DNA of 64,000 nt from Antedon mediterranea. Its lineage: Eukaryota > Animalia > Echinodermata. Under the pieces are notes generated by a model that worked only from the letters and a program-made list of their open reading frames with translations, had not been told where the DNA came from and did no database searches. This document shows, one piece after another, positions 10,167-45,300 of the stretch; position 1 is the stretch's first letter, and each line of letters starts with the position of its first letter. The stretch is taken from NCBI RefSeq assembly GCF_964355755.1, contig NC_092670.1, forward strand, positions 37,560,388 to 37,624,387, read 5' to 3'. A program made the translations under genes and the position numbers.

Positions 10167-10197
<31 letters not shown>

Positions 10198-20950: not shown

Positions 20951-21120
20951 CATTTTTTTTTTAAACTGGTGGTCACGACTTAAAGTTGTCCGCAACTTAT
21001 TTTGACCTCCATCCGCACATTTTTGATGTTTTTCTTGTTTATTGTAATTTTCTTTTTGCAATGTAATTTTTATCTTTTATTTTAAAATGTGTGGAGAAAC
21101 TAATAAAACAAACAAAACAA
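20951..21120 (+). mobile_element. Non-LTR retroelement 3' tail inserted in a MITE copy (20846-21161)
   Basis: T-rich tail ending AATAAA-ACAAACAAAACAA, with ACACTT on both sides. Confidence 0.5.
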
Positions 21121-24100
21121 ACACTTTTTTGTCAAACTAGTTTGACAGTGTAGACAAAGCTTAACATTTTTTAGTATCCTTGAATCAAGGTTTCCCCGGG
21201 TATACATTAGTCCCAATTTCGTGTTCTATAGTAGCGGTGTGGGACTATGCCAGAGGATACGGTATGGTAATTCAGGAAGAATATCCAGTGAGATCTATGT
21301 AAACCATCTGTACTGTTTTCTGTATGGTACTTCCTTGTAATATTAAATGTACACATCAACTTTTTTATTTAAAAAAATCAACATTTTTTTTTTATTTATC
21401 ATTCATCTTTTATTTAGACAACATGTTAAAAATTCTAAGCATACAAATCTAGTCATTTTCAGTACTTTACGGATATTATTTTAGTTCATAAAAAGTGACT
21501 TTAATTTTTTTAATTCTTTGAGTAGGTAGGAACCAAACACTCAGTATACTGTGTTTAATAACCCAGAATTTATTTTCAACAAAAAAAAAACCCTCTTAAA
21601 AAAAGATGAATGCAATGTAGGTTTAAGTTCATGGCCCTGGATTTTTAGGAGGAAGTCATTTGAATATCTATATCAAAAAAAGCCTTCAAACAGGTACTTC
21701 CTATCAACACTAGCTCCTCCCATTCTTATGTGTTCATTACCCAATGTAAAATGCTTGTTTATAGTCATATTTTACTGTTTGAAACATAGAATTTGTCTTG
21801 TACTCTTTGGCCTATTCCTTTGTTCTGATTATCTCATATCTCAAGTGGACATCTTTTGTCCGATTAATTGAACCAGCTGAAGTTGAAGATTGCTGTTGTA
21901 ACAAACAAGAAACTAATTGTAAGCTAGTTCGCTTGGAAGCCAGGAAGTATTCAAATTTGATTGAATCTACCACCAAAATGCATTTTATCGCTGGTGGTAA
22001 GATGAAGATACCTATCCAGGCACTATCCTTTGTTATTTTCAACTGAGGCGTATCTTTTTTTAACCATGTGTACAGTACAATGAGGACATTTCTACTTTTA
22101 CAGTTTGAAAATTATGAAGATATACAGTAATTTGTTTGAAGCAACAGAATAGTTATTGGAATATATGTTGGTACTGTGGGAAGTTGTTAATGTGGACATC
22201 GTTCTACTTTGTTAAGGTCAACAGCATGCATGGTGTTTTTTATAACCGTTGGAGGAAATTTAGTTTTACAATTTGTTAGTTGTTGAAGATTGAGAAAAAT
22301 CTGTAAGAACAACACTTTTGAAGAAGGATAGGAAGTCTTTTTAAAACTTTGTGTGTGAAGATTGGTGTGTCTTTTGTTAAACCAGGAGAAGTTTATTCAT
22401 CATTTTGTGTTTATTCTTCAATGTTTCATGCATCTTCTCTTGTTATTTAAATCATTTTAGTCCATGATATCTTTGGATAAAGTACAGTTAGCTCAACGAA
22501 TAATAAGGAGTGGTCTGTGGTGGATTATTATATAACAAAACAGACATAAGGAGTATAAAGGGTAAGCAGTTTTATTGTGTAGTTTCCTTTGTTTGGTTCT
22601 CATTATCATCAGCATTCAATAATGATATAGGGTTGGTTGTCATTCTGAATGAAAAAATGAGTGATGAGTGAAAGATGCTTTTAACTTTTAAGGACAATAT
22701 GTTTTTGTTTTAAATTATAAAAAAGTTTTTACTTCTGTGAAATTAATTGACTTGGGAAAATACAGTAAAAATCTGATTTGTCTGTCAAATTCCATTTAAA
22801 GATTACCAGGTTTTTAATTTCTATATTGTTTACAGTATAAAGTGATTTCAATAAAATCCAACCATTTTATAACTCTAAAGCCACATTTCTGACACTGACA
22901 GCTCAGTGAAAAAAAAAATACAGTAAAAAGTACAGTAAACTTGTTTCAGCCTTTTTTAGGAGATTTGGAGAGTAGGCCTACAGTACCAGCCTAGAAGTAA
23001 CAGTTTTTTTTTCTAGTTATTTTTTTTGGTTGCGTGTATATATACAGTATACCCTCTTGATAATATTAGGAATCTTGCTCTGATTTTAGTAAACACTCAA
23101 GGTCATAGGTCATTACTAACCATCTACAATGTATTGTAATTGGTGATTGATGTTATAACCTTTTTAATTACTGTAATCAACTTTTAATTGAAATTCTTTA
23201 GTTCATTAATTAGTTGTGATGCTAACATTCCAGCATACTTCCAAATCATCTTAGAGAATTCAAGCCACAGCGGTCGTTGTATAGCCGAGTGATGTCTGCT
23301 TTGAATACTTAATAATTGAGCCAATTTCCACATTTTTAAGAAACAGGATTTTAAACATTCATGAGGAAACTGGCTTCTATTTTGAGCTGAGCAATCGTAC
23401 TCAAGGCCCATCGACTCACTTTGCAGTAGGATAGTGACACTCTGGTAGCTAAGATAGTGTTTTCTCTGACAAGGCTGTGTGGAATTTAATTTTTCTTCTG
23501 GACTACAGAACTGTATCACAGGAATTAAATAACGTTTATCGCCATTGTACAGGTTGGTACTGTAGAGAGCATTGGTAGAATTTGTGTGTGCGACAATATT
23601 TTATTCTATCCACATACTGAACACTATTGAGTATACATGATAATTTTGTTAATGGCATCATACTTTATAGTGTAATTAACCAACTTGCTATAGTTAGATT
23701 GAGCTCAAACTACTGTAGTTATTGTTGACGAGCCTATACATTCAAACAATGTTGTACAGTACATGAACGTAATTAAATAGTGGGTTATGTACAAGATGTA
23801 TGATTGCTATGATTATTATTATTACTAATATTTGCTTTATATCATAATGTACAGTGGTACAGTACAGTAATATGCAAAGATAAGTTATTAATAGAATAAA
23901 TACGCAATTCAGTTTTGATTTCCTCTGTACTTCTTTAATATAAAAACAGTATGCATGAATTGTAGGAATAAGACTAAATTACTTTTATAGTAATACATTT
24001 TCATTGTCATTTCTCTGTAGTGTACTGTATACTGTACTCTATACAAAGAGTCCATTACATTTATTGATTTTTAAACAACAATTACCTCTATTATGTAAGA

Positions 24101-27100
24101 ACGTTTGTTACTAATGTTATACTTTAAAGAACAATGTTACTTTACTGTATAGTGTACTTTATAAATCAATATTTTTTATCGCTTATATTGTATTTGTAAG
24201 CATGGTTAATGAATAACAAATTTACCTCCCCCGCACCTCCTTTCAAAATCAAGGATATTACAGTATGTACTGTTTTACAGTTAGTGAGAATATAGACAAC
24301 TAATGCACATAATGATCTTTTACCCGACAGAACTGCATGTCAATGTTTTCTTGTAACCTTTGACCTGAATGTTGTCTTGCTACTTTGGGGGAAAAAACAG
24401 CATTAGACATGACCTTATGTGTAAATACATCATTTAGTATCTTGACTCAAAGTATGTATGCTATCAATCTGTTAGTATTATCCATTCGTTTTAGATCGCC
24501 AACAAAAATTGGCCTACGATTTTTGTTGAGTTAAAGCGATTATTTACACTAGAGTGTACAGAAGGGGTGTACAGTAGAGTAGGCCTATTGGTTCAGTTTG
24601 TTCAGTACTGTAGGTTATTGTTTATCTACAAATTTTTTAGGGGTAGGTTAATTAGGGCATAGTTGTATTATAAAATTATAGGTACGGTATATATAATTGT
24701 CTAAGAAAAAGTAGATATATTTTTTGCGTAAACGATGTACTGTACAGTACTGTGCTTTTACAATTCATTATACCTTTCAGTTTTGTAACATTAATTATAC
24801 CATTCTTCATGGTAAGAAATCTGATTCTGAACTTGTAATTTAAGAATACAAGCGTTTTGAATAATTAGTGTTCAGAATGTACATTACAATACATAGTACT
24901 TCAATGTGATAGGAAAGGAAGTTCAATCTATGTTTACTAGCAGTTAGCACTGTGTGTAAATGTTTGTCTTTCACAAATTAGCTCATGTTTGATTATAAAA
25001 AAAAAATATTTCTACCAACCATACGGTAGTTTAAGGTGAAATTAAAGTCTCTGAAATCACCTTAAATTTAACCTTTAATCTAGTGACATACAAAAAAGTT
25101 GCCAGAATATTCAAAACATTTGTAGAATTTGTTCTTACTCATTGTATTATACCAGTTGTAAAGTGTTAACAGAGAACATTGAGACAAACATTTTGCGTCA
25201 CATAATATAATCACTTTTATATTTGCTGTACAGTACATCGCATTTTTACTGAAAATTGCTCTCTCTTTGAATTAGCAGGAAAATACAAGCCATATTGGAT
25301 GTTATTTTATCCTCCATAATAAAGTTACAAATTTATTTTAGTAACTTTTTTATGGGACGTGATTTGCAATGTTTCAAGTTACACCACTTATCAGTAAAAA
25401 AATTAAATTTCCTACTTGTAAAATTTTCAAGTGAAATTCATAGGATGTGCAGGTTAAACATTAGGCTTCTGTGGTTTAGAAGAGCTTTCTGTGGTTTGTG
25501 TAAAAAGCAAAACCTGAATTATGTCCAAACCAACAAGTAATCTGTAATATACCACCATGTCTTGTCATACAGTAGGACAAATTTGTCACAATACTACAAT
25601 ATTACTGTTATATTGGTAGACTTTCCTAAAGCTCTGTCTACAGTATAAAAGTTTAAGTGACAACAAAATGTGATGTGCCCATGGATAGGATGATGTCATA
25701 TCATAATCACTACCATATTTGGGCATATTACTACCATATTTGGACATATCACACTTTGTAATTTGAAAATTAAAGGATGAGCCTACAGTAGCATAGAATC
25801 AGGAAAGAATACAAACTTAAAATCGAAATTTATACACATTTGCTTACTAAAACTTGTAAGCTTTTTAAATTAGTAGTAGAGGGATTTTGACAGCGTAAAT
25901 TAATTCAAATTTATTTTTAGGAAACTGCATTTATTCTGTTTATTTTTGTTTATAGTGTCTGACATTATTTTGTAAGTGACCAATCAAAATCCAGAAAGCA
26001 ATTCCGTCTGTAAGAATCTTGTGAATTTGTCAATATTTAAATAATAATGTTATATTACATTACTACATATAAATTTATTGTGGTTTAAACATTTACTGTA
26101 GTATTGCTTCACATTAACTAGTTCTCCGTATATTTTGCAGACAAGCTTTTTGCGAAATATTGAAAAAATGTAAACTTTATGTCAACATGAAAAAATGTAC
26201 TTATAATGTTATATAGAAAAAATAGAAAAATCACTAATTACAAAATTTAGATTTTGAAATAAAAAACAAACAATTTTGGACAGTAAATGAAGAATCCAAT
26301 GTGATTTAATACCTAGTATAACATTTACTAATTAAATATCAGTTAAAATATTAAGTCAAATATATTTATCAATCCGAATCCAAATTGACAAAATAGATTC
26401 CGAATGCTCATAGTGTATAGTGATATCCAGGTTAAAGCGGCACTTATACAGTACTGTATACTACTGTGTATGTTAATGTCTGAGCGTACCTGTACCACTA
26501 CTAGGCAAATGTTTATTATGTCCTGTGTACAATTTTCTTCTAACGATTATTTTAAATTCTTGTCCGGCGCCAATTTATTTTGTAAATTGTGCTGGCAAAC
26601 CTGCTTTGGGAGAACACTACAAAAACCATGGAAAAATGTGTATCATTATTATTAACAGTAAGTGTGCTATTGTTCTTTGGATTTAAATACAGAATAATAG
26701 ATTAGTATTAAAATTGTAATCAAAACAAGGACGCACTATGTATTAAAACCTTCCAAGCATACGGTTAAAACGCTTTCATTAAAATTAAATTGAAAGCAGT
26801 TTTATTTTATTGTGCAATTGATATTTTTTTGTATAGAAAAAGCCGTTAGCCGAAAGATAGCTATTAAAACACTGGTCAATAATCTGTAACTATGCAAAGA
26901 TCCTCAATAATAGTTATTTGTAAAGTACAATATTGCATTGCTGCCCTGGGTCTATATTATATTTCCAGCATACTCTAAACCTCTACAGTACATCATAAGT
27001 ATGGTAAATAAACCGTTCACTGGAAAATATTGGAGATTTTGATATGCGAAGTCCTTAAAACTAGTTATGTTATGATAATTAATTGTGTGCATTTGAGGAC

Positions 27101-29155
27101 ATTAGGATGTGCTTCACAATTTGATTTATTGACATCTCTTTGGTCAGTTTCTAGGTCCATGTGAGGACCAACGATCCTTCAATGCATATAAAAGTTCATA
27201 ATTCCTACATTAAGTCATTGCAAATCAAAATCTACCAAATACTCCATTTACGGTAGTGGTTGGTTATTAGAATAAATACCAAGATTAAACCTGTAGTTGG
27301 AAAAAAAATAATGAACATCAAGGACAAGAGAGTGAATCATCCGCCTAAGTGTTGAATATGAAAACAACACGCAGTAGATTAATTGTTGTCTACAGGTATA
27401 CTAAATGATTCTCTAATTATTCATTTACTGGCATGATTAATTTCAAGTGTAATGTGTGCAAATATGCTGTTGATATGCCCAAATATGGTAGTGATATGAC
27501 ATCATCATGTTCTCTTATATGCACACATCACATTTTTTTGTCACATTAAGTTTAATAGTGTAGACAGAGCCTAAGTATTGAATACAACATGCAGTAGATT
27601 AATCGTTGTCTACTGTACTGAATTAATTATTCATTTACTGGCATACGGTACTTAATTTTGAAGCTAGTGTCATTTAACCCGCTGCAAAATAAACTATTTG
27701 AGTTGAGTTGAGTAAAAATACAAGTTATGTGAAACAATGATAACAGGTATCATAGTAATAAACAATAAGGTAATCAAACTAATTTAAATAAAAAAAATAT
27801 ATAGAGACACTTGTACTTTAAAAAAAAGCAAGGAAGTTTGTACTTCAAATTAGTGTGTTGTTGTGGTAATTTTTTTGACATGCCTTTGGGGTTACGAGAG
27901 GTGCAGGTTGGTTCATTCTCTCACACCTGTTACTATGGCATTATCCCTGGCTATTTAGTAAAAGTGGTTGAACTACAGTATATACAATACAGCACGCAGT
28001 ACATAGACATGCTTGATGGTGTACAGTAACTCTACATATACATTTCCAAGTGCATACTTACACTACTACTGTAGTACAGTACTGTACTGTAGTACAGGAT
28101 TTAGGGAGGTGTACATTTTAAGAAGCTTAAGAAACTGTCTGATTACATTATCATGGAATAAGGTGAGGTTTTTAATGTGATTTAGTTTATTTGTTTATCT
28201 TTGTATGATACTATAGGCCTAACACTCTACGGTCAAGGGTACATTAAACCACCCGGCCCAGGACAAAAACCAACCAAAGAGAAACTACCTACTGTACTGC
28301 TGTATGGACTACTGTACTAATAATTTATTAGAGTATTAATTGTGGGGTGGACTAGTATCAGGACACTAGAATTAGAACTACTTTATTCTAACAATAGTAG
28401 AATCCATTATCAGTAGATTATCTAGGGTAGTAGTACAATAGCAGTGCTAGTTCTAGCAACTGAAGTTTTCATGGAAGATTTGGCGCTGTGCCTTTCGAGA
28501 AAAAATACACGTTTTTCTGAATTTCTCTATACTTCTCTTACCATATTTCTCCAAATTTGATTCAATCCTGTATTCACTCAAACTACTGTATTAAATACAA
28601 TTCTTTAGAATTTAATGTACATTGTTTAGATAGAATTATTACGGTGTTTTGTCTCGACTTCCCATTTTAAAGTTACCGATTTAATCAAGAATGATGGTGG
28701 TTAATAAATGCGGATTTGTACTGAATTCTCTAAGGCTATACTTTACTGCAAACTGTACAGTTGGTACTACTGTATATGTACTATTACTACTATCAAGTAT
28801 AAATGCTGAATTACAATAAGGCTAAGTTTTTGTAGGTTAATTACATGTGGTAGCTAAATGATAGTGTCTGGATACAGATTCTTTCATGTCTATAATAAAT
28901 TGTTTTAGTAATTGGATTGGCCGTTAAAGTATCACTGGAATAATGTTTTGATTGATGCATCTTCTATGTGGATTAGTCATCAGTAAATTAAAATAACACT
29001 TTTAATTCTAGAATTCTATGTATGGATGCTTGTAGAATATTTTAATGAAGTCAGTTCTAGTCTGCGGTATAAAATATCTCCGTGACGGATTCCAAGATTT
29101 AGAAATAGGGGGAAGAAGCAGGGCTTAAAATGAAGTGCTAAATTTTACAGTTTAA

Positions 29156-29474
29156 AGATGTATTGTCCCCAAAAAACATGAAAAATTAAGATTAATTAAA
29201 TGAAACTTTGAATAGGTTATTTTGTAGTTTTAATATAAGTTAATCAATTCTGTAGAAATAAAATGAAATAAAATGAAAAAAAATAATGTTTTCACAAGTT
29301 ATAAAATGACAAAATAAATGGTTAAATTCAACCAAAAATCCATTGGCTGGCAGCCAATTTGACAATTTTTTTCTTTTTTAAATTACAGTTTTTCAGGTAA
29401 CTAATTTTTTTTTTTTCGATCTGATTTTTGGTCAAAGTGGACAACAAATTTTTTTTTCAGGGGACAATACATCT
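29156..29474. mobile_element. Kolobok-like MITE, copy 3
   Basis: TTAA|AGATGTATTGTCCCC...GGGGACAATACATCT|TTAA, perfect 15-bp TIR. Confidence 0.75.
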
Positions 29475-30405
29475 TTAAACCTAATGTTGTCTTTTGCATT
29501 GTAGTTTTCAAAATGTATAGATCTACTTCTTAACTCCGCCTTCGTTTTTTCTATTCCGATTCAAGATGACTGTTTTGATATTTATATAATATTTATATTC
29601 TTAACATTGAAACAAGGTCAAACAATCTATTCAGTTTTCTGTTCTTAAATTAATCAAAGGATGAACATTCAAATGTACAGTACATTTATTGACCAAATGA
29701 ATTTCTTCTTCTGAAAATACAATTACTGCACAATACTACTGTACGTGAAGGAAAGAAAATTGTCAGAATATGTTTGTGGAATTATCTAAAAAGCAACTGT
29801 TCTTAAATACCAAAAAGTGTTTAATATTTTAAGTGTCTGGTCTCAGTGAAAAGTTGAGAATTTAGGGATTATTGTCATGTTAGGGACCATCTTTAACATC
29901 TTCAATGCTGATGACACTCTGGTATTTTGTTTTCTATACTACTGTACCCCCATAAATTTACAAATTTCACACATGAGTTTGATTGAAACAACCAAACTGA
30001 AGTATTGGGGCTTATGGAAGGTGATTTTTGGCTGTTTAATCTTTTTAATAAAAAATGGGTGGAAATAATGGTGTTTCAAACAGCAAGTTATAGTAGATAG
30101 GTGGAGAAGGGAAGTTACACATTTTCTATATTTTCTTAGGTTTAAAAAGACTATAGGAGGATACAGTATGATATTTGTAATAAGGTAGAATATTCATCTC
30201 GTATAGTAACTTGTCAACTGCGCTCTGTGCCTTGTCTAGATGATACAGATACCCTCCCAAACCGACCGTGTCCCGCTTTTTCAATTTAAGATATTTGCGT
30301 ACAGTATAATTAGATGAAGGGCTAGTGTTGCCCGAAAGCGCAGCTACTTTTTCTGGCTGTTTTACTTTGTAGTTTTTATTTAGCTTTTTGCTTATTTTAT
30401 TTTGT

Positions 30406-31248
30406 ATTGAGATCTAGCCACTGATACCCACAGCATTGTCATTTTGTATGTCCATTGAGATCTAGCCACTGATACCCACAGCATTGTCATTTTGTATGTC
30501 CATTGAGATCTAGCCACTGATACCCACAGCATTGTCATTTTGTATCTCCATTGAGATCCAGTCACTGATACCCACAGCATTGTCATTTTGTATCTCCATT
30601 GAGATCCAGCCACTGATACCCACAGCATTGTCATTTTGTATGTCCATTGAGATCTAGCCACTGATACCCACAGCATTGTCATTTTGTATGTCCATTGAGA
30701 TCTAGCCACTGATACCCACAGCATTGTCATTTTGTATGTCCATTGAGATCTAGCCACTGATACCCACAGCATTGTCATTTTGTATGTCCATTGAGATCTA
30801 GCCACTGTTACCCACAGCATTGTCATTTTGTATGTACATTGAGATCTAGCCACTGATACCCACAGCATTGTCATTTTTTCAGTGCTTATTTCATTTTGTA
30901 TGTCCATTGAGATCTAGCCACTGATACCCACAGCATTGTCATTTTTTCAGTGCTTATTTCATTTTGTATGTCCATTGAGATCTAGCCACTGATACCCACA
31001 GCATTGTCATTTTTTCAGTGCTTATTTTTTTGTATCTCCATTGAGATCTAGCCACTGATACCCACAGCATTGTCATTTTGTATGTCCATTGAGATCTAGC
31101 CACTGATACCCACAGCATTGTCATTTTGTATGTCCATTGAGATCTAGCCACTGATACCCACAGCATTGTCATTTTTTCAGTGCTTATTTCATTTTGTATG
31201 TCCATTGAGATCTAGCCACTGATACCCACAGCATTGTCATTTTTTCAG
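30406..31248. repeat. 48-bp minisatellite, 16 units (some 66-68 bp)
   Basis: Unit GAGATCTAGCCACTGATACCCACAGCATTGTCATTTTGTATGTCCATT. Confidence 0.95.
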
Positions 31249-33108
31249 TTATTTGCCTTTAGATTCAGTATATAATTACAATAGATATAAATAAATTATG
31301 TTATGCAATTTTTGTAAAACTGCCTCCCTCTTATCTCAATTTACTGAATTTTCTAATTGCTGCCACAATACACCATATACTGTAGCATTACTAGATTAAA
31401 CTACCAATACAATCCAGATTTAAGTTATTATTACAGCGTAGAATTCCCTTTTATTTGTCTCGTTTTGATTGGGTTTTAACGTTCTTACTCATTTCCTTAG
31501 TGGATGTGTTCTTCTGTTGGTTAGTCTACTCCGATATTGGTGGTTTTATTTTCATAGAATATTGATGACAGGAAATTATAAAAATAAATATCAAAACTTT
31601 GATTGTACGACTTTCGATTGAATACTGAGGTAAATTTATAAAATGTTTATGAGGTCACGTGATCAGTTTTGTATTGTTTTAAACGAAATTGATTTACATT
31701 AAAATAATTGAAAACGTAGTTTCGGAATCATCATAGTTTCAGAATCGTAGTTTTATGTCTTTGCATTTCTGAGGAGGTCATTGATTTTGCTTCTTGGTGG
31801 ATAGCCTACAGTATGCATGCAATACAGTAACTAACACTGCTAAGCTGCTCCTAGGGTGAGTATCACTACCATGGTCTTTATTACTGTAGGTGATCGCTGA
31901 TAGCAGAGTTAGACATTTACACTTTTTACCAGTACTTACTGTACTGTTAATGTAATGCAGAGGCCTGAGGCCTTGTGCTCTCCAACATTGGAGGCCCGGG
32001 GAGCGTGTTTAGTTGTTTTTTTTTTACATATTTTAATGCCTGTTTTTTCACTTACTGGTTTCTGCATAAATACAGTAGGGACCTCACAAACTGTTTTGGT
32101 ATTACCACAGAGGTGCCATTTTAATGATCATGTGATAGGATAATTGTGAACGTGTTCCTACAAAACATCAATAAAAAGTTACAAATTAGTACAGTTACTG
32201 AAAGAGCTCAACAACTATATCTCCTGTAAGAATGCAATTGAAATGTCACAAGAAGGGTCAATTTAGGGGTCAATGAAGGCTGGGAAGGTGAAATCTGATA
32301 GGAAGAGCAGAAACCTATGAGGGCTTGGTGTTCTAGGAACTACTTCTCTTTTTTTTTCTTGTCAAAGTTTAGTACTGTAGGGAATAAGTAGCAGTAAGTT
32401 ACTCAATGTAGTTACTTAGGTAAGTATTCTATTTTTGCCGTTAAATTTTAGTATTTTAGCATAAGCAAGTCTTTCTTACAAAGTTACAGTATAATTACTG
32501 TACAGTAATCTGTACTATTTCTATAACTTTGGTATACAGTACAGTACGTATTACTATTTACTTACACTGTACAGTACTTTACTTGTACACAGTCCAAAAA
32601 GGAAATCACCATAGTGTTGTACACTACAGAAGTAAAGTTGCTAAATGAGGCTACTGAAAAGAAATAGTAGAGCATATAGTGGGAAAAAAATTCCAAAGTA
32701 TGGTACGGTAATGGTATGAAATCAGTGTGCATTAAGAAGTTGACCTGAGGTCAAGAAGCACTGCAATATTGCTATTTGTTAAGCAGGTGCTGATGGATCT
32801 GGAAGTTTAAGGTGGGTGAGATAGGCAAAGTAGTCTGGCATGATCTATTAACATATTAAGTTACTTCAGATTTTTTGTGAAAGTTTAGGCATCACCACAC
32901 AGATGATAGTTACAAGTAGATTATTTCTAAAGGTGCGTGCCTGGCGTTTTTAAAGTTCATAGGATGGCGCTTTCAATGTACTGTATAAATCTGTTGTGAA
33001 ATATCAAAGACAGAATATAATCCAGGGCCCAAGAATTGCATAAAGGAAACTATGTTAACCACTAACCTTCACCAGCTTCTAAAAATCATTTCTATACAAC
33101 TTTATGTC

Positions 33109-33292
33109 TGGTGTATGTTATTAAGCTGGGTTCACACACACTGGAGTTAACTTTGTTGCTGGTGTATGTTATTAAGCTGGGTTCACACACACTAGAGTTA
33201 ACTTTGTTGCTGTGTATGTTATTAAGCTGGGTGTACACAAACTAGAGTTAACTTTGTTGCTGGTGTATGTTATTAAGCTGGGTTCACACACA
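33109..33292. repeat. 51-bp tandem repeat, about 3.5 units
   Basis: TGGTGTATGTTATTAAGCTGGGTTCACACACACTAGAGTTAACTTTGTTGC. Confidence 0.9.
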
Positions 33293-33999
33293 AACTCGTT
33301 CTATGAAAGCTTAAGCTGGATCCGAATCATATCCTATATTACATCCTATATTTAGTCCTCTTATGATCATTTAACTCTTATTATACCTCTCTGTAATTAA
33401 CCACATTATCGAATAATTTTCTGATATAATATGTAAACTCCGTTAGGTTTCAGACTGTGACATTCGATGAGTACTTTCATGGTTATATCGGATGTTTGAG
33501 TATTTTTGTGTTTGAACGCAGAACAAACTATGTAACTCTGTTGATAAGCTGCAATTTAGCTGCGATAGAGAAAAGAATGCGTAAACATAGCTCAAGTAAA
33601 GTAGTTGTTGAGAAAGCCAGTTTATCATTCAATGCAGAAATGTCAATTTTGTTTTTTTTTTCAAAACTTTACTGTATGTACAGTAAGTGATGGATTTACT
33701 ATATACCGTATGCTTGTAACGTTCAAAGAAATTCCATGCCTGTCTTGTTGTTTGTTTCCAAATGCTAGTGACATAAATTAGTAGTTTGAAATGTGTTGAC
33801 GTAATATCACTTGATTTAATACGCAGGTTGAAGACGGAGACTGTCAAATTAATTAATTGCACAGTTTCACAATTTATTTTCATTTAAAACAAAATACTTC
33901 AAACTTTTAATCCCAATTAAAGATGCACTCACTGTGTCTCTACTTTCTTAACTGTAGAGTAAGTATAGTTTTCTCTTTTTAATTTAGTATTCAGATTTA

Positions 34000-34473
34000 A
34001 GCTTTGTCTACTCTATCAAACTTTGTGACAAAAAAGTGTGATGTGCGACTGACTGACAGATACACCAGAGGCGGTCCGGGTCATCACTGCTTGTCCAGCT
34101 GATGTTATCATCTTCATCCTCTATTAGATCGTCCGATTGGTCACTAAATTCTAAAATTTGCGATTAAATGAAGATTTGTTATTTTGTAAAAGAAAAACCA
34201 TGATCATCTTAAGCGTAAATGTTAATCAAAGTGTTATTGAAACAAACAAACCTTCGCTATTAGTGGAAAATTTTCTCTCTTTACGAACTCTTTTTTCTCT
34301 TTGTTCCCCAATTTCCATCTTTTCAGACAGCTCTTTCAATTCTCCTTCAGATTGCTGTTTGATATGGTAGTGGTACCCAAGTATGGTAGTAGTACTGTAT
34401 GACATCATCATGTCCATATATGGGCGCATCACATTTTTTTTGCCACATAAAGTTTGATAGTGTAGACAGAGCT
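34000..34473. mobile_element. Harbinger-type MITE carrying ~313 bp of captured gene sequence (Pack-MITE)
   Basis: TTA|AGCTTTGTCTACTCTATCAAAC ... GTTTGATAGTGTAGACAGAGCT|TTA; non-MITE insert at 34047-34359. Confidence 0.85.
34047..34359 (-). pseudogene. Captured DIDO1/PHF3 (PPS)-like gene fragment: exon, 101-bp intron, exon
   Basis: QQSEGELKELSEKMEIGEQREKRVRKERKFSTNSE | intron 34251-34151 (gtttgt...ttttag) | EFSDQSDDLIEDEDDNISWTSSDDPDRLWCICQ, in frame; the end matches the start of the DIDO1/PHF3 PHD finger. Confidence 0.75.
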
Positions 34474-37261
34474 TTAGAAGAGCTGCTGTGCCTTTAAAGG
34501 TACATTATTAAAGGTACCATTGATTTGTCGATGCATCTGATTCATTTGATACCTTAAATGTACAGAATTCCATTATGCATGATAGAAATTATTTACGCAA
34601 TCCCTTCGATTCCTGAAGTGTCGATGAAGATTTTTGCATAATCATGTACTGGATTAATTTGTCACAAATATTGGATCATTTATATTCTGAAGTTTTCCCT
34701 ACAGATCAATCGAATCTCGTTTTTTAAACTGAAATTTCCTTTTTATATTTTAAAATACACTATTGATACAGTATACCTTCAGTAATCTATTACAAACACA
34801 ACTTGTCTTTTGCTATTTCTTCTACTGCTTTCCATGTCTTTGTCACATTCCTCTTTCGAGTATTGTATATGTTTGTTTATGTGAACAGGAAAACTTTCAC
34901 CAGCATAGAACTACTTAAAACAACTACCTTATTCACTATCATAAAAATGCAGCACAAAACTATTTTCCTACTCAGACTTCATATAGAAATATTGTAATAT
35001 ATAAATATAATATATAATAATTTATATAGTGCACATTTCCACTGAAAAAGTGCTCAATGCGCTAAATAATAACTTTTTAACTGAAAATGTTCACTGGTGG
35101 ATTGTGGAAATGTTAAAAAAGTACTTTAATGTCCCTCTTATGTTAGTATGCATAATGCCAATTCTCACCATTACTATAATTGCTTCCAATTATTGCATTA
35201 TAAACCAATGTCACTTAAAAAAGTGTTATCATATTTTAGCATACAGAAGTAGAAACAGGACAGATTTAAACCTGCTCAAAATCTTCAGAAAAAGCACTTC
35301 TTTGTTAATGCGCCGCTCATGTAGGCAGTTATATTCAAGAGAACAGAAGCATTATGAAACAGTTACTATGCGGTAGCTTATATTTTACTACAGCTGAAAA
35401 AATGGGTATTTGGAAACTCGCACGTCTGGGAAAAGAGAGTATGAAAACATTTGCTGATAAATGAAATTGCCCCACATGGGATGAATAAAGAATTTGAATT
35501 AAATTAAATATTGAGATGCAAGTAGACGGTAGTTATCGTCAGATGAGCAGCGTTTTTTGTAAGAAATATTTTTTGTTTATTCTCGTTGCCTTCAGCTAAA
35601 ACACACCTTGTAAAGTTTAATGCATTCCTAAAACCACCCACTTGTTATTGTGTATGATTCCTATTATACATTAAATAGTAAATGTTGTTAACAGGGTCTT
35701 CAAGTTTATCTGAAATTCATCCTTGGCCGGTGGTACACTAATGTAGCACCTGTCATGTTTGAAGAGCTTCCAAATTATATTTTCAATTTTGAAGTAAGAA
35801 ATATAAAAATGATAACTCTATAGTCTTAATGTGGATATAGTTCATACTTTGTTTTTTAATAGAATAAATAGTATTACTTTAAAAAAACGCCGCTCGACTA
35901 ATTGAGTTTTAATTGTTGTTCTTCCTTCATTAAATAATGTTTTTATTAATATTCTGTTGAACATTAAGAAAAAGTGAATTATTATCATTTTTGTTGAGTA
36001 CAATCAGTTTCATTTTGTGTACTCGATGTAAAATATAGTCTGAAATGTTCTATTTGGTTATGTCACCATTATTTTGTGTAATGTAAATGGGCCGTTCAAT
36101 GCAATATCTCATGATTAGCAGATGTTTTTATAGACTCTCATCTTCCAGACGTGTTTTGTGGTGTGCGCATGCCCAGTCCGAGTCTACAAATTTCCATTTT
36201 TCTGCCGTAGTACACTATAAGCTATTGCATGGTAACCGTTTCCTACAGTAATGCTTCCGTCCTCTTGAATATAACTGTCTAATGAGCGGCGCAAAAATGA
36301 TAACTTTTAACATGGATACACTACAGTACTTTGAAAAAAAAATAGGAAAACTGATAATAAAAAATATAAACAGATGGTGACGAAGACTATACTGATGTTT
36401 TTTAAACAGACTTTTTATATATCTTTTGGTTTTGATTAGGGAAGCTGAATGAGTCAGAGCTATCTATATACCACTTGATATTTTAAGTTCATGGTCAGTA
36501 TGTGTTATTAAGGAAAACATGATTCTGGTCAATTGGTAAAGGAAACACATAAATGATGTAACTTGATGTTAATCACATGAAAGGCTGTTGTCTGATCAAT
36601 GTTTTTGAGGTGCGTTTAAATGGTAAAGAAAATGGCCTATACTAAAGCTCAGTCTACACTATCTAACTTGTTAAACAAAAAAAAGTGTGATATGCCCAAA
36701 TATGGTACTGATATGACATCATCATGTCCATATAAGTGCACAGCACATATAAGTGCATTTTATCGTTGCATAAAGTTTGATAGTGTAGACAGAGCTTATA
36801 GTAACAGTAACAATCAACATTGTGCTGCAGTTACTGCAGTATAACTACTCAACCAAGAAAGAATGATTTCCTTTGATGTTGTTGATTAGACTTTAATCAC
36901 AAAATGTTACTGCAGTAAATGAAAAATGATTTTGTTAAATTGCTGAAAAAGAGAGGCCTGATGGTTGAAATGTGATAGAAGTGTTGTACAGTATATACAT
37001 AGAATTATTTTCCCCCCAAAAAGTTGGCCCATTTCAAATTTCATGTCATACTCTTTCAAGGTACCTAATATTATTGCATTCCAGTTGCTTCAGTCAAAAT
37101 GCTTCATGCCACATTAAGTTGATATCCTGCAACATGTGATCATTTTAATGTTATTTTTGCTGAGTATTGCAAGAACTCATGATTGTCAAAGTTGTGGTTA
37201 AATAAATCAAGTGTATTTGATATTGTGGCAATGTAGCTTGGTGGTTAACATGTATGCATAA

Positions 37262-38554
37262 CAGGGGCGGATCTAGGATTTTGAAATAGGGGGGCGTAGG
37301 TTTGCGAGCGAAGCGAGCAAACACTGGCTGGGGGCCAGGGGGCCGCCAAGGGCCCCTGGAAATTTTGGCGTTCTAGCGCATTGTAAGTCGTTTAAAACGA
37401 TTTACAAACAATTCATAATGTCATTTACCAAACACTCTAAAGCTCGCAAATTACGACATGTGGAACATGCAGCTGATACTTACCTAGGGTACCAAAGCAA
37501 GCTAACAACTTGCCTGTACTTTACATCTAAATTTTTACAACGCGACGATGTTTTTCAGCTTTTATATAAGCATAAACTTGTCCTAGCCTAGGCCGGTATT
37601 ATTTTCTTACACGCGCGCCGGGTCGATCGCGGTGACGTCTACTTCTTCGCATCCATCATCCATGCAGCTAAAGTAAAATGACGTCACGTTAAAGCGGGTC
37701 ATCACAGAGTCTCATGCATATTAATGAAGCAAAGTTGCTGAGAGTGTTTTCCACCACCACGCAACACATGCGACGCGAGATTTATCGAAACTCCGAGCCA
37801 TCGACTGACGATCATGTTTTTGACAATTAAAATCACGGCATATTCAACGACCTGGTTTAAACGATCGTTTAAAAATTAGCGGTCCGGCTCGATCATCATT
37901 ACATTATATTTTTAGTGATTTGAAAAAAACAAAACACCCCTTTTGTCATCGCGATTTGTTTATGAGACTCATCGACGGAAAAGCAAATAAAACACTACAA
38001 GGCCCGGTCATGAAATGCTGTATGCAGCATTGTTAATATTTTAATAGTAATATGTTTTAATAAAATATAGGCCTAACGGGATAATTTTCATAGGCACTAC
38101 AGTCCTAGCCTTTGTTTTTATTGTATTTAATAAATGGGCGCGTAGTGTAGCACTGACCATGTGACTTCATAAACTCTATTGATCGTCGGAGGTACGTACC
38201 GCTACTCTACAACGGGAGTGACGATCACAAAGGATGCCGACCTGCTTAGTAAAACGCGACCAAGCTCACCACGTGGCTTTTATCAACTTGCTCCTTTTAG
38301 TTTTACACTTAACTGTGAATGATCGTTGGTAACGCTAGAGATTGATAGTACACAAAGGATGTCGACGTACATGCTTGGTGAAATGCGATCAAGCTGACGA
38401 TGTGCTCCGACGTACTATTTTCACTATGAAAATGACCGTCGAAACGATACGTGTTTTTAAAATCTATTTAATTTAAAAAAAAAAAAAAAAAATCTTTAAA
38501 AAATAGGGGGGGGGGGGCGTACGCCCCACACGCCCCCCGCTAGATCCGCCACTG
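37262..38554. mobile_element. 1.3-kb non-autonomous hAT-like element with 5-bp TSD, copy 1
   Basis: CATAA|CAGGGGCGGATCTAG ... CTAGATCCGCCACTG|CATAA; near-identical to 46371-47627. Confidence 0.88.
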
Positions 38555-39734
38555 CATAAGAATCCCTGGTTCAAATCCTGAACAAAATACAAAAATTTAA
38601 ATTCTATTCAACTTAAAGTCCGGAGTATACCATAGTCATTTGTCTAGTTACAATAAGATTGAGCTTTTCTTTATAAGTACTTCTATGAATAGATGTTCTG
38701 TTGAGTGCAGGAACGCTAGTTGATCATACCCAGTACCATTTTGATCGTGCGATTATTCCTCACATAAAAAATAGATTGGTAATATCATAAAGTTAGTATA
38801 ACCTCCGCTCCAGATAATGTTTAGTAGATTTAGTAAATAATGATTTATGTAAAAGTGAGAATTGTTCCATCATACCTACTGTACTATGCAGTACGTTTAG
38901 TAGGAAAGAAAAGTCTGCTAATAGGAACAGGTCTCTAAAATGGATATCAAACGGAATAGTAAGGGAGTTTGACTTTATAAAGTTGGGTCAACATTTTGTA
39001 ACCGTTTAAAACATCACTATACAGTATTAATTATTGCTGAAAAGAAAAAATACTGGGCAGAATGGTCTCTTTTTGTTTGGGCAACTATATATTTACTGAT
39101 ATAGTATTTTTCTTCGGACGTTCTATACCAGCTAAAATAATCTTCTTTTGTGACCTGGAGACTATTAAAAATTAGAGAAAAAAGAAGAAAGGTCAAACCT
39201 GACTGCTTTAACATTCATAAAGTCACTGAAGCGTTCATGCCTAAATCCGTCATTAGGGAAAATAGAACAAAAGTTACTGTTATATAATGTTTTTATACAT
39301 TCAAAAAGTTTATAGCTGAATGCATCGGTGGACGGATAAAAGTATGATTATATTTTACAAGGTTACATCAATAAATATGAAAGTTTGCAAGATATTTCTA
39401 ATTTTAATAGGTTTAAGGATTGGAAATGTACAGTATAACTATATACCGTAGCCAAGAATGCCAAACAGGCTTAAGACAGTTAACCTTTGACATTAGTCTT
39501 GTCAATGATTTACCTGTTGTACAGTACAGTTGTATACTAACTTTTACTGGGGGTGTTATTGCATTAACACACACCCACATAGCAATGGATACTTTATACT
39601 CTACTCTAGCTAATTAAATAATGGCACAACAATTTCACAGAAAATACTGTATGATATACAATAGTAAAAAACTAAATATCTTGAATAATTCAGTTATAGT
39701 GTTAGTATAGTATTTTAATTTAGTATTTCTAATC

Positions 39735-40790
39735 CTACCCCGTCTCCTACCCAGTCACCTCCTACCCCGTCACCTCCTCCTTCCTCTCTTCCTTTAGCTC
39801 ATCCTTCTCCCTTCAACTTATCCCTCTCCCTTCAGCTTATCCCTCTCCCTTCAGCTTATCAGCTTATCCCTCTTTCCTCAGCTTATCCCTCTTTCTTCAG
39901 CTTATCCCTCTCCCTTCAGCTTATCCCTCTCCCTTCAGCTTATCCCTCTCCCTTCAACTTATCCCTCTCCTTTCAGCTTATACCTCTCCCTTCAGCTTAT
40001 CCCTCTCCCTTCAGCTTATCCCTCTTCCTTTAGCTTATCCCTCTCCCTTCAGTTTATCCCTCTCACTTCAACTTATCCCTCTTCCTTCAGCTTATACCTC
40101 TCCCTTCATCGTATCCTTCTTCCTCCAGCTGATCCCTCTTCCTTCAACTTATCCCTCTCCCTTCAGCTTATCCCTCTACTTTCAGCTTATCATTCTTCCT
40201 CCAGCTGATCCTTCTTCCTTTAGCTTATTCCTCTTCCTTCAGCTTATCCCTCTCCCTTCAGCTTATCCCTCTCCCTTCAGCTTATCCCTCTCCCTTCAGC
40301 TTATCCCTCTCTATTCAGCTTATCCCTCTCTCTTCAGCTTATCCCTCTCTCTTCAGCTTATCCCTCTCCCCAGCTTATCCCTCTCCCTTCAGCTTATCCC
40401 TCTCCCTTCAGCTTATCCCTCTCCCTTAATTTTATCCCTCTCCCTTAATTTTATCCCTCTTCCTTCAGCTTATCCATCTCCCTTCGGCGTATTCCTCTTC
40501 CTTCATCTTATCCCTCTCCCTTTAGCTTATCCCTCTTCCTTCATTTTATCCCTTTTCCTTCACCTTATCCCTCTTCCTTCAGCTTATCCCTCTCTCTTCA
40601 GCTTATCCCTCTCCCTTCAGCTTATACCTCTCCCTTCATTTTATCCCTCTTCCTTCAGCTTATACCTCTCCCTTCATTTTATCCCTCTTCCTTCAGCTTA
40701 TCCCTCTACCTTCAGCTTATCCATCTTCCTTTAACTCATCCCTCTCCCTTCAACTTATCTCTCTACATTCAGCTTATCCTTCTCCCTATT
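39735..40790. repeat. ~1-kb pyrimidine-rich 19-bp satellite
   Basis: Unit TTCAGCTTATCCCTCTCCC, roughly 50 units. Confidence 0.95.
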
Positions 40791-41892
40791 TTAAAGTGTG
40801 GATCAATCACAACTTTCCAAAATACAAAGCTAGGTCTATGTAAACTAGGTTCAATTTTAACCTTTCAAATTATCAACCAAGCAACCATTACTAAACATAT
40901 GCCACTGTTACAAGGTTGCCTAATGAAATGGAACATACCAAGACAGACCCAGGAGATGATAATGTTTAAGGAAGTGAACCGTATGTAAAGTAATGAGGGT
41001 CGCAGATGGACATGGATACATTGCTTTAAAATTGATCCTAAATAAAATGGAATAAAAGATAAAGAGGAATTAAAAGATATAAATTCAGTTGTTAAGTAGC
41101 GGTATAGCTAAGCTTTGTTTTATATTTAAACAATAGACGTACACTTAAAGTATAGAGAGTTCAGTAACTGATGAAGGATTGGAACCAACCTAATTTGAAG
41201 ACATACAGTACAGTATGCAAATCAGTGTGATCACCTGTATTCTAGCACCTGATACTGTATTTAGATGCCTCCAGTATCATAGTTTTACCATACTACAGTA
41301 GTATTTAATAGACCTTCCATGATACAGGCACCATATGTGATGCTGTATTATGGAATTTTCTTATGATACTTGGCAAACATTGTCATATGTGGAGATACAA
41401 CACAACACTGGGAATTGGGTCATTCTAGTTGGGTAAAGATATTCCTGTACTGCAAATGAAAGTTTTCAATTTCAATCAGATATTTTTTCTGAAAGCAATC
41501 AAAAGTCATAATAAACCAGTATTGGGCCATCTCTGTACGAGGCACCAGTTCCTGTTCTCTGGAACAATGTACATTTTTGTAAACCTGGATTTCTCGTTTT
41601 CTTTTAAATCTACAGTGCCTACCATAGGTAATATAAAGTAGAATGATTAAACTATGCAACTAAAATTTGACCTACTATGGAATGTGTATTTAATATGATT
41701 TTGAGGCATATTAAAGGAGATTTGTAATTATGTTACCAGAGATTAAAATGAGGTGGGCATGGGTAGGTTCAACACCCAACTACAATTTTGCACTCATTAT
41801 TACTAGGCACTTGTATCATGTATGTGCAATACTGGAGCAGCCCAGGACCCAATCGTGAACAAAGTATCATTCCCAAGGAGTTGTCAAATATT

Positions 41893-42391
41893 AGAGAGGT
41901 TTCGCAATCTTACGAATACGATAACGAAAACGGATACGTCACGCACACGTATTCGTTTTCGTAAGCCATAAAAAAATCTGTTTCGCATGGCAACGAAATA
42001 TTGAGGCGCGTCCAAAATATGACTGCGGTAAATTTGAGCGAAGCGCAGGTACGTGTTGCTTGGTGCTTGGCTGCCTAGGCCTAGCGTAACATCAAAGCGA
42101 GTGAGGACTTTAAAAACTGCTATTTATCAAAATTGACTTGGCATTTTAGTAAATTACTTTAGTAAATTACTTTCAATAAATCTATAATTATATTATAATC
42201 ATGAATCATTCCTGCAAAATGTGCAAAATAGATCAAAACCTATAGTCGTTTTGTAGTTACGAATATGACTGGTGATATTCGTCAACACGAATACGGTTTA
42301 CGAATATGAAATGGGGATCAGCTCAAAAGTTTCTCAAATGTGTGACGTATTTGTTTTCGTTATCGTATTCGTAAGGTTGCGAAACCTCTCT
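41893..42391. mobile_element. ~500-bp MITE with ~55-bp TIRs, PHIS (Harbinger/ISL2EU/Pangu)-like
   Basis: ATT|AGAGAGGTTTCGCAATCTTACGAATACGATAACGAAAAC ... GTTTTCGTTATCGTATTCGTAAGGTTGCGAAACCTCTCT|ATT. Confidence 0.78.
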
Positions 42392-45300
42392 ATTATATTT
42401 AACCTCTAAGCAGGCAATATCTAAGTGTAAATAGGGTCAAAGTGTTCACTCATATTACGGGATGAGATTGAACTTAAGCATGGGATTATACTGTACTCGT
42501 CCATGGCATTATACTGTACAAATACGGTAATCTTAGTAACCATTAATTAAAATAATGAGGAAGGTACTTGAAGAACATAAAAAACCCTGTTTTACAAATA
42601 TTCTGTAACATATACAACATGTATGTATTGTAATGTTATCTCAAACTAAGTGTAGTCTGATAATGAGATTTAAAATTTTAAGTATATTTTTGTAATGGAC
42701 GTGTCTACAGTTGTGTAATAATAGATAATGATCATGTCTACACTTTGGTATAATTCTATGTAAGACAGCATATTAATGATAAAGTCTATCGTTAAAGCGT
42801 ACTGTAGTAATGTATATTTCTGGTAAATCAGACATCTGTATCCATAACCATTAGTAACCATTAAATCATGTTTTGACTTGACGCAAAGTAGCGCTTTATA
42901 ATTATGACTTTAATATTTACATGTCCTAATAAAGGCATTTCTCAATGAATACGGTAAGTATTATCATTTACTGTGTTTTAACATACATTCCAGCATTTTT
43001 TCAAATATTTGATTTTTATGTTAAATGAACATGTCCTTGAAAACTTTACTTAATATTTGTCTACACTATCAAACTTTATGTGACACAAACATTTAATGTG
43101 CCTTTATATGGACATGATAATGTCATATCACTACCACATTTGGGAATATCACTGCCATATTTGGGCACTAAATAAAAACCGGTAGACATATGGTTGGTAC
43201 CCAAAATTACCATCGTTTTCAATACTGTACCGTAGCAGCAGACAACTCATTTGATAACTTTAATTAAATTGGGTCAGTTTAATTAAAAGAATACCGTCTT
43301 TTATTGAAATGAGTACTTTTTCACTAATTATTTCATTGTTTTCATAAATTTATTTCCGGTCCACAAGCTCCGCAATTTGAAAGACAAACGAGACTGATTT
43401 AATTTCTGCAAATCCTCTTCTATATTTTCATTGTTATTTTGTAAAAACCTATTGTAATGCACTCCAGGTTTTGTACTTTTAAAATACTGTATCTGAAACC
43501 ACAATACAAACGCTGGAACTGTACAGTAGTATCATTTATACACTTGGATGATTTCTGAAGGCCAATTTATTGCTCACAAAAGATAGTAGCTTTTTCAGAT
43601 CATTTGACTCGTTCAGTTTGTCATGACAAGTCTTTACTAAACTTCCTGACGATCAGGGAGTAGATTTTTAAAAAGCTTCATTTGTTGTAAATAATCAAAC
43701 ATCATTTTGGATATTTCTGCTATTTCTTTATTGGATTTTATACTACTAAATGGATTTTATGTGTAATATAAATTAGGTGGATTAACTTCAGCTCATTGTA
43801 AGTAACCATGTCTATTATTTGTCAAAATTGTGAAGAATTTCTCGACTTTCAAATTTTACAATATGGTGCTTCAACGCTGTTCAAATCTAAACTACCACTT
43901 AGCTTATTGACTAGCTTGGTAATTAGTAAGAATACCGTATATTTATCTGTACTAAACATTATCAATATGGATTTCTTTTTATTTTTTACAAATGAAAATA
44001 TAATGTAGCAGTATCTCTCCATTAATTTTTTTAAATGTTTTGCTGTTGTTTTGTGTATTAGTACTGTAGTCTATCAAATACACAGGGAATATAGGGATAC
44101 AGTAGATGAGTAGGGGAAAAAGTAGCTAGTACAGTTTTTAGCTAGTTGGAAGCTGCAATAGTATTTGTAGCTAGGTACACAAACTTAAGAATTAAATCCT
44201 TTATATAATACTATCAGAGACCATTAGATTCAGTAGACTGTATACTTCATTCATATTTTATGCAGTACAGTAGATAGGCCTGTAGCTCTCTATGCTGCAC
44301 AAATTATCACCTCTCTTTGTTTGTTAAGATAAAAATGTTCTAATTATTATAGATGTGTTACCATGTTTAAAAATTTATGTTAATGATCACAAACAACTAA
44401 ATATTATTATGGGAATATAAACTTAAAAATTCAGCTGTATGTTATGTCACACTTAGCCCGTGGGCCTGTTTATTTTGACAGATTAAACACTTTGATTGAG
44501 TGATTCGTTAATAGAAATTGAAAACTGGCGTTTAATCCTGTTTCAAGCCTGTAGGCAAAGTTCTATCAAAGGGCAAGAATCATAATTTGCATTATCAACG
44601 TAGTTTAATAATATACTAGTATATATTGTCGTTATACTTGTCTGGGTTAAGCTCAATTGTACTTAACTTGAATAGGTAGTTCAACTTACAGCATTAAATA
44701 ATGGAACAGATTTTTACCAAATTGATTTGGTTATAATTCAATAAGAGTTATTTTCAAGAAAAGTGTATTTTATTTTTGCAAAAGGCTGTTGTTCCCACCA
44801 AAACAATCACACTGTGTGAATCTCAGGGGTGATTACTGTTCTTTTGACCCACATTAATCTGATTTTTTGCAAAAATTAAAATCTATAATGTATTTTTATA
44901 AAGGATAAATATAGCATTATGTGCTTGAATACTACATTATTACTTTCAAGTTTCAGTCAAAGCTCCACACTATCAGACTAGTTTGCCAAAAAAGTATCCA
45001 AATATGGTAGTGATATGCCCAAATATGGTAGTGATGTGACATCATCATGTCCATATAGGGGCACATCACAAGTATGATTTAAAATCCACCATAAAAGAAG
45101 TGAATAAATGGTGACAACTTGTAAAATAGTATTTTTTAACTGACATATTGATTCATTCAGAAATTAATACTTTTCCTGTAATTTTTTCTGTGTTTGTAAG
45201 TGAAACATGTCTGCATAGAAAGTGCACTTTAATAACATGAGACTTTGTGCATAAATTGATTGTCAAATCAATAATAAGTATCATCTCAATTAAATGCAGT

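What the first reader, a model, noticed from the sequence alone, without database searches (positions are those of the whole stretch)
34000..34473. Pack-type gene capture by a tiny animal MITE: intron-containing DIDO1/PHF3 PHD-finger fragment as cargo
Seen: this copy of the ~160-bp Harbinger-type MITE has both TIRs and a TTA/TTA TSD, but 34047-34359 is foreign sequence with no TIR, TSD or tail of its own. On the minus strand the insert reads as an exon end (…KERKFSTNSE G|gtttgt), a 101-bp GT-AG intron (34251-34151), and a phase-matched exon (EFSDQSDDLIEDEDDNISWTSSDDPDRLWCICQ) with no stops. Knowledge: an acidic tract followed by DDPxxLWCIC is how the PHD finger of DIDO1/PHF3/Drosophila PPS begins. 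Pack-type capture is best known from plant Pack-MULEs and is much less characterised in animals. Inference: the retained intron means DNA-level capture (template switching during gap repair), not retroposition. The clean frame suggests it is recent. The cargo lies antisense inside the ARHGAP21 pre-mRNA and could give antisense or small RNA against the parent gene.
Basis: partly seen in the sequence, partly recalled or inferred. Interest (0 to 1): 0.85.

Follow-up and report, generated by a model that had tools for sequence, protein, structure and literature searches.

The report
Single gene fragment trapped in mini-transposon
One copy of a very common 160-base jumping element in a feather-star intron holds a fresh 309-base DNA copy of part of the chromatin gene PHF3/DIDO1, likely patched in during repair of a break after the element had already landed; it is a clean but ordinary example of a capture type already catalogued in animals.

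Summary
A 160-bp MITE copy (34000-34473, TTA/TTA flanks) in the first coding intron of ARHGAP21 is split by a 6-bp filler plus 309 bp (34053-34361) of the PHF3/DIDO1 gene. The parent locus appears in public run contigs at 2-3 differences in 309 bp. It carries the same 101-bp GT-AG intron, continues into the PHD finger, and a likely RNA run splices that intron out. The Pack-type reading holds only in its weakest form. Contig depth fits about one haploid copy. Two samples of a sister species appear to carry the MITE at this site but gave no cargo contig. The MITE arms have drifted more than the cargo. About 4 bp of the MITE were lost. This matches the single-copy Pack-TIR made in place by gap filling described by Tan et al. 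2021 (370 animal cases, including PIF-Harbinger and sea-urchin ones). Spread, expression and small-RNA effects are untested. The scan has noted multicopy Pack-TIRs in other genomes, but nothing like this sequence. New member of a known kind; interest 0.2.

The parts
33997..33999 (+). Left target-site duplication TTA
34000..34046 (+). Left arm of the MITE (positions 1-48 of the 161-nt window majority; 2 substitutions, 2 gap events)
34047..34052 (.). 6-nt filler found in neither the MITE majority nor the parent flank; its last four bases repeat the first four of the cargo
   Evidence: parent contigs stop matching at 34053; sequence
34053..34150 (-). Captured part of a PHF3/DIDO1 exon: acidic tract and start of the PHD finger up to C-I-C-Q; the parent goes on K-P-H-G-N-R
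34151..34251 (-). Captured 101-nt GT-AG intron of PHF3/DIDO1; holds the 2 substitutions against the parent contig (34165, 34213)
34252..34361 (-). Captured 3' end of the upstream PHF3/DIDO1 exon (basic stretch)
34362..34473 (+). Right arm of the MITE (positions 53-160 of the majority; 4 substitutions, 5 gap events); holds ATGs in frame with the cargo on the minus strand
34474..34476 (+). Right target-site duplication TTA
19729..50426 (+). Host context: first coding intron of ARHGAP21 (about 30.7 kb; ends to within a few bases)

Best explanation
This is a 309-bp DNA copy of part of the PHF3/DIDO1 gene inside one resident MITE copy, likely written in by templated repair of a break in the element after it had inserted, likely present at this one site, and likely without function. 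Shown: MITE ends and TTA duplication; a parent locus with the same intron at 2-3 differences in 309 bp; loss of about 4 MITE bases; a 6-nt filler at the left joint and a blunt right joint with no shared microhomology. Inferred: (1) the MITE landed first and aged in place; (2) a break arose in the inner part of its fold-back stem; (3) repair synthesis switched to the PHF3 locus, copied 309 bp of genomic sequence and rejoined by end joining, leaving the filler; (4) the chimera has not been re-mobilised, although both ends are still there. This is the single-copy Pack-TIR by transposition-independent gap filling of Tan et al. 2021.
For: Parent contigs in 3 of 3 DNA-like runs laid match the insert over 34053-34353/34361 and run on into unrelated sequence at both ends (loose ends at 34053 and 34361). 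X3 shows 2 differences plus 1 in the adjoining contig; X6 and X8 (organism B) show 6-7 differences and a 9-nt deletion. MITE arms differ from the window majority by 6 substitutions and 7 gap events in 152 columns, against 2-3 in 309 for cargo versus parent (Fisher P about 1e-4). Organism B contigs run from the orthologous flanks into both MITE ends (33800-34024 and 34450-34700), while X6 and X8 each gave only 1 contig on the cargo, the parent orthologue. The right cargo-MITE joint is bridged (38 and 46 letters a side) in X1 and X3 at depth 23 and 134; 134 is 0.43 of the parent-only contig (312). The shared contig's depth of 320 fits 0-1 haploid copies (312-334 expected) and not 4 (399) or 10 (528). 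Tan et al. (sections 5 parts 1-2, 10, 12, 14 read): median cargo 224 bp, median TE loss 4.6% (about 2.5% here), empty orthologous TE in 91 of 97 primate cases, blunt or filler joints common.
Against: No genome was held, so copy number rests on contig depth, which the tool warns is not a copy number. X1 and X3 are one sample that may be the assembly's source. The B contigs reach only 25 and 24 letters into the MITE, under the tool's 31-letter bridging rule, and no B contig spans the empty element. The left joint is bridged by no listed contig. Sharing organism A's state dates the capture only weakly: at two of the four A/B differences (the 9-nt deletion and G-to-V at 34308) Anneissia sides with A, so B changed. 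Gap filling usually takes a template within 15 kb (57% in Tan et al.) and shows microhomology (68%); here no parent copy lies within 30 kb and no microhomology is seen.
Confidence: 0.75

Rival explanations
1. The fragment was copied from unspliced PHF3 pre-mRNA by a reverse transcriptase (LINE or polymerase-theta type) and patched into a break in the MITE; the product is again single-copy and inert.
For: A retained intron rules out mature mRNA but not pre-mRNA. The parent gene appears transcribed and spliced in X5. The parent is not within 30 kb, and an RNA template would not need proximity.
Against: No poly(A) tail or duplication flanks the insert. The two placed differences are G-to-A and T-to-C on the PHF3 sense strand, not A-to-G editing marks (read).
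Confidence: 0.1
2. The chimera formed elsewhere, or is moving: a cargo-bearing Pack-MITE transposed here and has, or is starting to have, further copies (FoSTeST-like route).
For: Both termini and a perfect TTA duplication are intact. The family is very abundant (29,094 contigs laid in X3). Multicopy animal Pack-TIRs exist (4 cases plus Ssk-FB4 in Tan et al.).
Against: Junction depth is about half the parent's and there is one junction contig. The MITE appears to sit at the same site in organism B without cargo. The arms have aged more than the cargo.
Confidence: 0.08
3. The insertion has nothing to do with transposon biology: a random templated insertion landed in this MITE only because the family covers about 4% of the DNA.
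For: The family covers 4.1% of the window. Tan et al. found Pack-TIR numbers scale linearly with TE numbers, about 2 per 10,000. This rival differs from the best explanation only in denying that the element is break-prone.
Against: All 4 interrupted copies in the window are broken at positions of about 40-55, and 4 more lack the left end up to positions of about 33-50 (read from the alignment). A family copy folds into one long hairpin (z = -11.6). This hints at a fragile or targeted zone, but the pattern was noticed after the fact and has no control.
Confidence: 0.05
4. The chimera is an assembly artefact.
For: The left joint is bridged by no listed contig.
Against: The right joint is assembled independently from short reads in two runs with 0 differences, and the cargo differs from the parent contig at 2-3 places.
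Confidence: 0.02

Closest known systems
Single-copy animal Pack-TIRs made by transposition-independent gap filling (Tan et al. 2021, PMC8277862; abstract, section 5 parts 1-2, sections 10, 12, 14 and supplement searches seen)
   Same: Host DNA of 100-5000 bp between the two halves of one TIR element; an unambiguous parent above 90% identity; intron kept; small loss of TE sequence; an empty TE likely at the orthologous site; exonic cargo (13.4% of their cases); 'Harbinger' occurs 37 times in their case table and 5 cases are from the sea-urchin assembly strPur2.
   Different: Crinoid host (not among the rows I saw; I did not read their whole species list). The carrier is a 160-bp MITE, shorter than its cargo. 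The parent is not nearby and there is no microhomology, both minority but common states in their set.
Multicopy Pack-TIRs (Pack-hAT-N8_XT, Ssk-FB4) and plant Pack-MULEs (as described in PMC8277862)
   Same: Gene fragment with intron carried between TIRs, with a TSD.
   Different: Those are amplified by transposition with distinct TSDs and can be expressed; here the evidence points to about one haploid copy made in place, and expression is not shown.
PIF/Harbinger (Tourist-like) MITEs (TWA duplication as stated in bioRxiv 10.64898/2026.05.26.728016, passages seen; the name Tourist is recalled)
   Same: Short non-coding element, long terminal inverted repeats, 3-bp TTA or TAA duplication.
   Different: No autonomous partner or transposase was found to confirm the superfamily; only 2 of 9 two-ended copies keep an exact duplication.

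Membership tests
Pack-TIR (Tan et al. 2021 criteria) | Internal sequence of 100-5000 bp flanked by two parts of the same TIR element, both termini present | tested here: met
   315-bp interior between majority positions 1-48 and 53-160
Pack-TIR (Tan et al. 2021 criteria) | Unambiguous parental copy at 90% identity or more, of similar length | tested here: met
   Parent contig with 2-3 differences over 309 bp; one parent path only
Pack-TIR (Tan et al. 2021 criteria) | Not an intronless retrocopy | tested here: met
   The 101-nt intron is kept and is the one skipped in X5
Pack-TIR (Tan et al. 2021 criteria) | No TE within 100 bp of the parental copy (excludes segmental duplication) | tested here: inconclusive
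   Only 30 letters of each parent flank were shown; both read as PHF3 exon or intron, not MITE
Single-copy gap-filling class | Empty TE at the orthologous site of an outgroup | tested here: inconclusive
   B contigs enter both MITE ends by 25 and 24 letters; no cargo contig in 2 of 2 B samples; the interior is not spanned
Single-copy gap-filling class | One copy in the genome | tested here: inconclusive
   Depth fits at most about one haploid copy; no genome to search
Multicopy Pack-TIR / Pack-MULE-like | Same chimera at several loci with different TSDs | tested here: not met
   One junction contig at 0.43 of parent depth; shared-contig depth 320 against 399 expected for 4 copies; depth evidence only
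PIF/Harbinger MITE | 3-bp TWA target-site duplication | tested here: met
   TTA/TTA here and TAA/TAA at 10680; exact in 2 of 9 two-ended copies, at least one TWA flank in 8 of 9
PIF/Harbinger MITE | [quoted passage not shown] | not testable with these tools
   No genome held; the TIR pattern had 0 matches in metagenome contigs

The most novel reading that the evidence does not exclude
The inner left stem of this extremely abundant fold-back MITE is a recurrent capture slot, so the genome holds many MITE-bracketed gene fragments. This copy is a capture caught before fixation, with intact ends, and its MITE-derived ATGs (first at 34429) are in frame with the PHF3 piece, giving a predicted 106-residue chimeric ORF if the 101-nt intron is spliced, while read-through of ARHGAP21 would make RNA antisense to PHF3.
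Probability: 0.1. Interest if true: 0.55.

Novelty: new member of a known kind. Interest (0 to 1): 0.2.

Why it matters
As it stands it is a tidy single example: parent, intron, filler and a probable empty outgroup site are all visible, so it could serve as one data point on how TIR elements acquire gene fragments in echinoderms. It likely has no effect on either gene. It would matter more if a genome-wide count showed that this very abundant MITE takes up gene pieces at one position far above the roughly 2 per 10,000 rate reported for animals, or if the insert were still polymorphic and expressed, because the first step of Pack-element birth could then be studied in a living population.

Tried and rejected
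No whole genome is held for this window, so the genome-wide BLASTN and the catalogue of family copies could not be run. No run was on record as RNA (X5 is a guess). X5 gave no contig over the intron or the cargo-MITE joints (3 of 3 contigs were parent-type); this blank says nothing about expression or about whether that animal carries the cargo. The spliced joint in X5 has 30 and 28 letters a side, just under the tool's 31-letter rule; I accept it because it falls on the GT-AG ends and the neighbouring contigs stop at 34152 and 34252. A word-based protein search with the 44-residue exon frame found 0 of 4 candidates. A search with P0005 residues 465-600, meant to find this organism's own PHF3 and its chromosome, returned 6 of 211 candidates, none from this genome, so cis or trans origin is unknown. 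The PDB search gave one weak hit, the Drosophila PPS PHD finger 5wle, E 0.15. Pfam found nothing in the cargo frame P0003. The other phmmer hit, P0004, is a tandem-repeat protein and was dropped. The TIR pattern had 0 matches in metagenome contigs. The three other inserts in MITE copies were only translated and compared with the window, not searched against protein or repeat libraries; calling them nested insertions rests on flanking repeats and tails. Dating the capture after the A/B split from shared letters was weakened once Anneissia was used as outgroup. Six paper searches were run; 'Pack-TIR' occurs in 3 papers of the library, and none of the listings names a crinoid case; two searches were seen as listings only. 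The bioRxiv paper's supplements were not requested and do not bear on the claims.

Full report
Observation. The element runs from 34000 to 34473 with TTA on both sides, and its left 47 bases pair with the right end at 44 of 50 columns. It belongs to a family that gives 22 merged hit segments covering 4.1% of the window, about 18 copies by my count. One intact copy folds into a single long hairpin (z = -11.6). In run X3, 29,094 contigs were laid on the 901-base stretch, nearly all on the MITE arms, so the family is very abundant. Exact 3-bp duplications survive in 2 of 9 two-ended copies, and 8 of 9 have at least one TTA or TAA flank. That fits PIF/Harbinger, whose TWA duplication is stated in bioRxiv 10.64898/2026.05.26.728016 (passages), but no autonomous partner could be sought.

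Identity of the insert. On the minus strand the two exon pieces translate without stops around a 101-nt GT-AG intron with matching phase. A phmmer search of 1.84 billion representatives with the second piece gave 2 hits; the real one is P0005 (E 1e-6, 76% identity), named PHD finger protein 3-like of the crinoid Anneissia japonica, with PHD, BRK, TFIIS_M and SPOC domains. Both pieces align to it in order. The host gene is ARHGAP21: the genome's own protein P0008 matches the window's PDZ exon at 100% and Anneissia's at 87%. In 4 of 5 isoforms coding exon 1 lies at 19699-19728 and exon 2 starts at 50427, with no residue from the insert. The element therefore lies in the first coding intron, with PHF3 antisense to the host. 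The organism is inferred to be a feather star.

Parent locus. No genome is held, so I used public runs (9 runs, 2 organisms, 3 studies). In one search four runs were laid on 34030-34380. X3 (organism A) gave 3 contigs: one of 1,545 nt matching 34053-34353 with 2 differences, both in the intron; one of 2,150 nt matching 34324-34361 with 1 difference; and an 84-nt cargo-MITE junction contig. The long contigs leave the window sequence at 34053 and 34361. Read on the minus strand, the loose end at 34053 codes K-P-H-G-N-R followed by GT, as in P0005. X6 and X8 (organism B) each gave 1 contig, the orthologue, with 6-7 differences and a 9-nt deletion. So the insert is a 309-bp, 99% or more identical, intron-containing copy of the live PHF3/DIDO1 gene. 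It holds only the first two cysteines of the PHD finger.

Joints. Against the majority of 20 other copies and fragments, the left arm covers positions 1-48 and the right arm 53-160, so about 4 bases were lost. Six filler bases (34047-34052) stand at the left joint, the last four repeating the first four of the cargo. The right joint is blunt. Comparing the loose ends with the MITE sequence by eye shows no microhomology at either side. The insert has no tail, TIR or duplication of its own. The right joint is bridged in X1 and X3 with 0 differences; these are one sample and may be the assembly's source. The left joint is bridged by no listed contig.

Order of events and copy number. The arms differ from the majority by 6 substitutions and 7 gap events in 152 columns, against 2-3 differences in 309 for cargo versus parent (P about 1e-4). 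Organism B has contigs that run from the orthologous flanks 25 and 24 letters into the two MITE ends, short of the tool's 31-letter rule but on both sides, and no second contig on the cargo in 2 of 2 samples. In X3 the junction contig has depth 134 against 312 for the parent-only contig, and the shared contig has 320, where 312, 334, 355, 399 and 528 are expected for 0, 1, 2, 4 and 10 haploid copies. Depth is a rough guide only, but it argues against amplification and hints that the insert is on one haplotype. Against over-reading: two of the four A/B differences inside the fragment are B-lineage changes by the Anneissia outgroup (my reading), so shared letters do not by themselves place the capture after the species split.

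Other family members. Three more copies in the window are interrupted (10075-10427, 18217-18611, 20846-21161). One insert is flanked by a 7-bp direct repeat and has short inverted ends; one ends in an A run with a 6-bp repeat; one ends in a (TATC)n tail (read by eye). They look like nested mobile insertions, have no copy in the window, and were not searched further. All four interruptions fall at majority positions of about 40-55, and four more copies lack the left end up to about 33-50. This pattern was noticed after the fact and has no control; it is the basis of the novel case, not of the verdict.

Mechanism. The most likely history is insertion of the MITE, ageing in place, a break in its inner stem, template switching to the PHF3 locus for 309 bases, and end joining with a short filler. 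The anatomy and parent are shown; the order is inferred; the enzymes are not addressed. Copying from unspliced pre-mRNA is the main rival and cannot be excluded, since a kept intron rules out only mature mRNA. No editing marks or tail support it. The right arm supplies ATGs in frame with the cargo on the minus strand; by hand, splicing would give 106 residues ending at a stop in the left arm. This is a prediction with no RNA support either way.

Comparison with what is known. Tan et al. 2021 (PMC8277862; abstract, section 5 parts 1-2, sections 10, 12, 14) report 370 Pack-TIRs in 100 animal genomes, about 2 per 10,000 TIR elements, almost all single-copy, median cargo 224 bp, median TE loss 4.6%, an empty orthologous TE in 91 of 97 primate cases, 13.4% exonic, and antisense transcription to the parent in two human cases. 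Their case table has 37 occurrences of Harbinger and 5 cases from the sea-urchin assembly. The present element meets their structural criteria and fits their main class. It lacks the common nearby parent and microhomology. The scan's earlier notes list multicopy Pack-TIRs in other genomes (not checked here) and nothing resembling this sequence or this topic in this genome.

Verdict. Real, well resolved, and ordinary: a new member of a known kind, interest 0.2. The novel reading, a recurrent capture slot with an expressed or still-polymorphic chimera, has probability about 0.1 and would deserve about 0.55.

Noticed in passing
window 25630-27571: Two MITE copies that both lack their left ends face each other across 1.7 kb, right ends outward, with TAA on both outer sides; this could be a composite element or chance. 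The 27445-27571 copy is also flanked by a roughly 80-90-bp direct repeat at 77% identity (27343-27434 and 27569-27644).
   Followed up: partly
window 18266-18486: Insert of about 200 bp in a MITE copy, flanked by a 7-bp direct repeat, with short inverted ends and an internal hairpin; likely a small nested transposon.
   Followed up: partly
window 20965-21120 and 10171-10375: Two more inserts in MITE copies at nearly the same position, one ending in an A run, one in a (TATC)n tail; likely retroposed fragments.
   Followed up: partly
window 54939-61365: Nested long inverted repeats (97-99%) around a 683-codon minus-strand frame (57378-59429) and a 210-codon frame (55714-56346); these look like a young DNA transposon in an ARHGAP21 intron, but Pfam found no family for either frame.
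   Followed up: partly
window 13716-14840 (-): Single open frame of 374 codons with a PALP domain (E 1e-77) that reads like a cysteine synthase (name recalled); apparently intronless, between the first gene of the window and ARHGAP21.
   Followed up: partly
window 37367-38435 and 46464-47525: Two copies, 97-100% identical and about 9.1 kb apart, of a roughly 1.1-kb sequence inside the ARHGAP21 intron; likely a young non-autonomous element.
   Followed up: no
window 4529-7595 and 15368-16313: Two further elements bounded by inverted repeats of 223 nt (90%) and 124 nt (99%).
   Followed up: no
window 8322-8522 and 62040-62194: MITE copies in which the internal 21-bp unit has expanded to 4-5 tandem copies, so the family can seed minisatellites.
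   Followed up: no
window 34252-34246 and protein P0005 residues 495-500: Anneissia's PHF3 reads G-L after the residue where this species splices, the same two residues that the unspliced donor region gives here, which suggests a donor a few bases further on in Anneissia.
   Followed up: no
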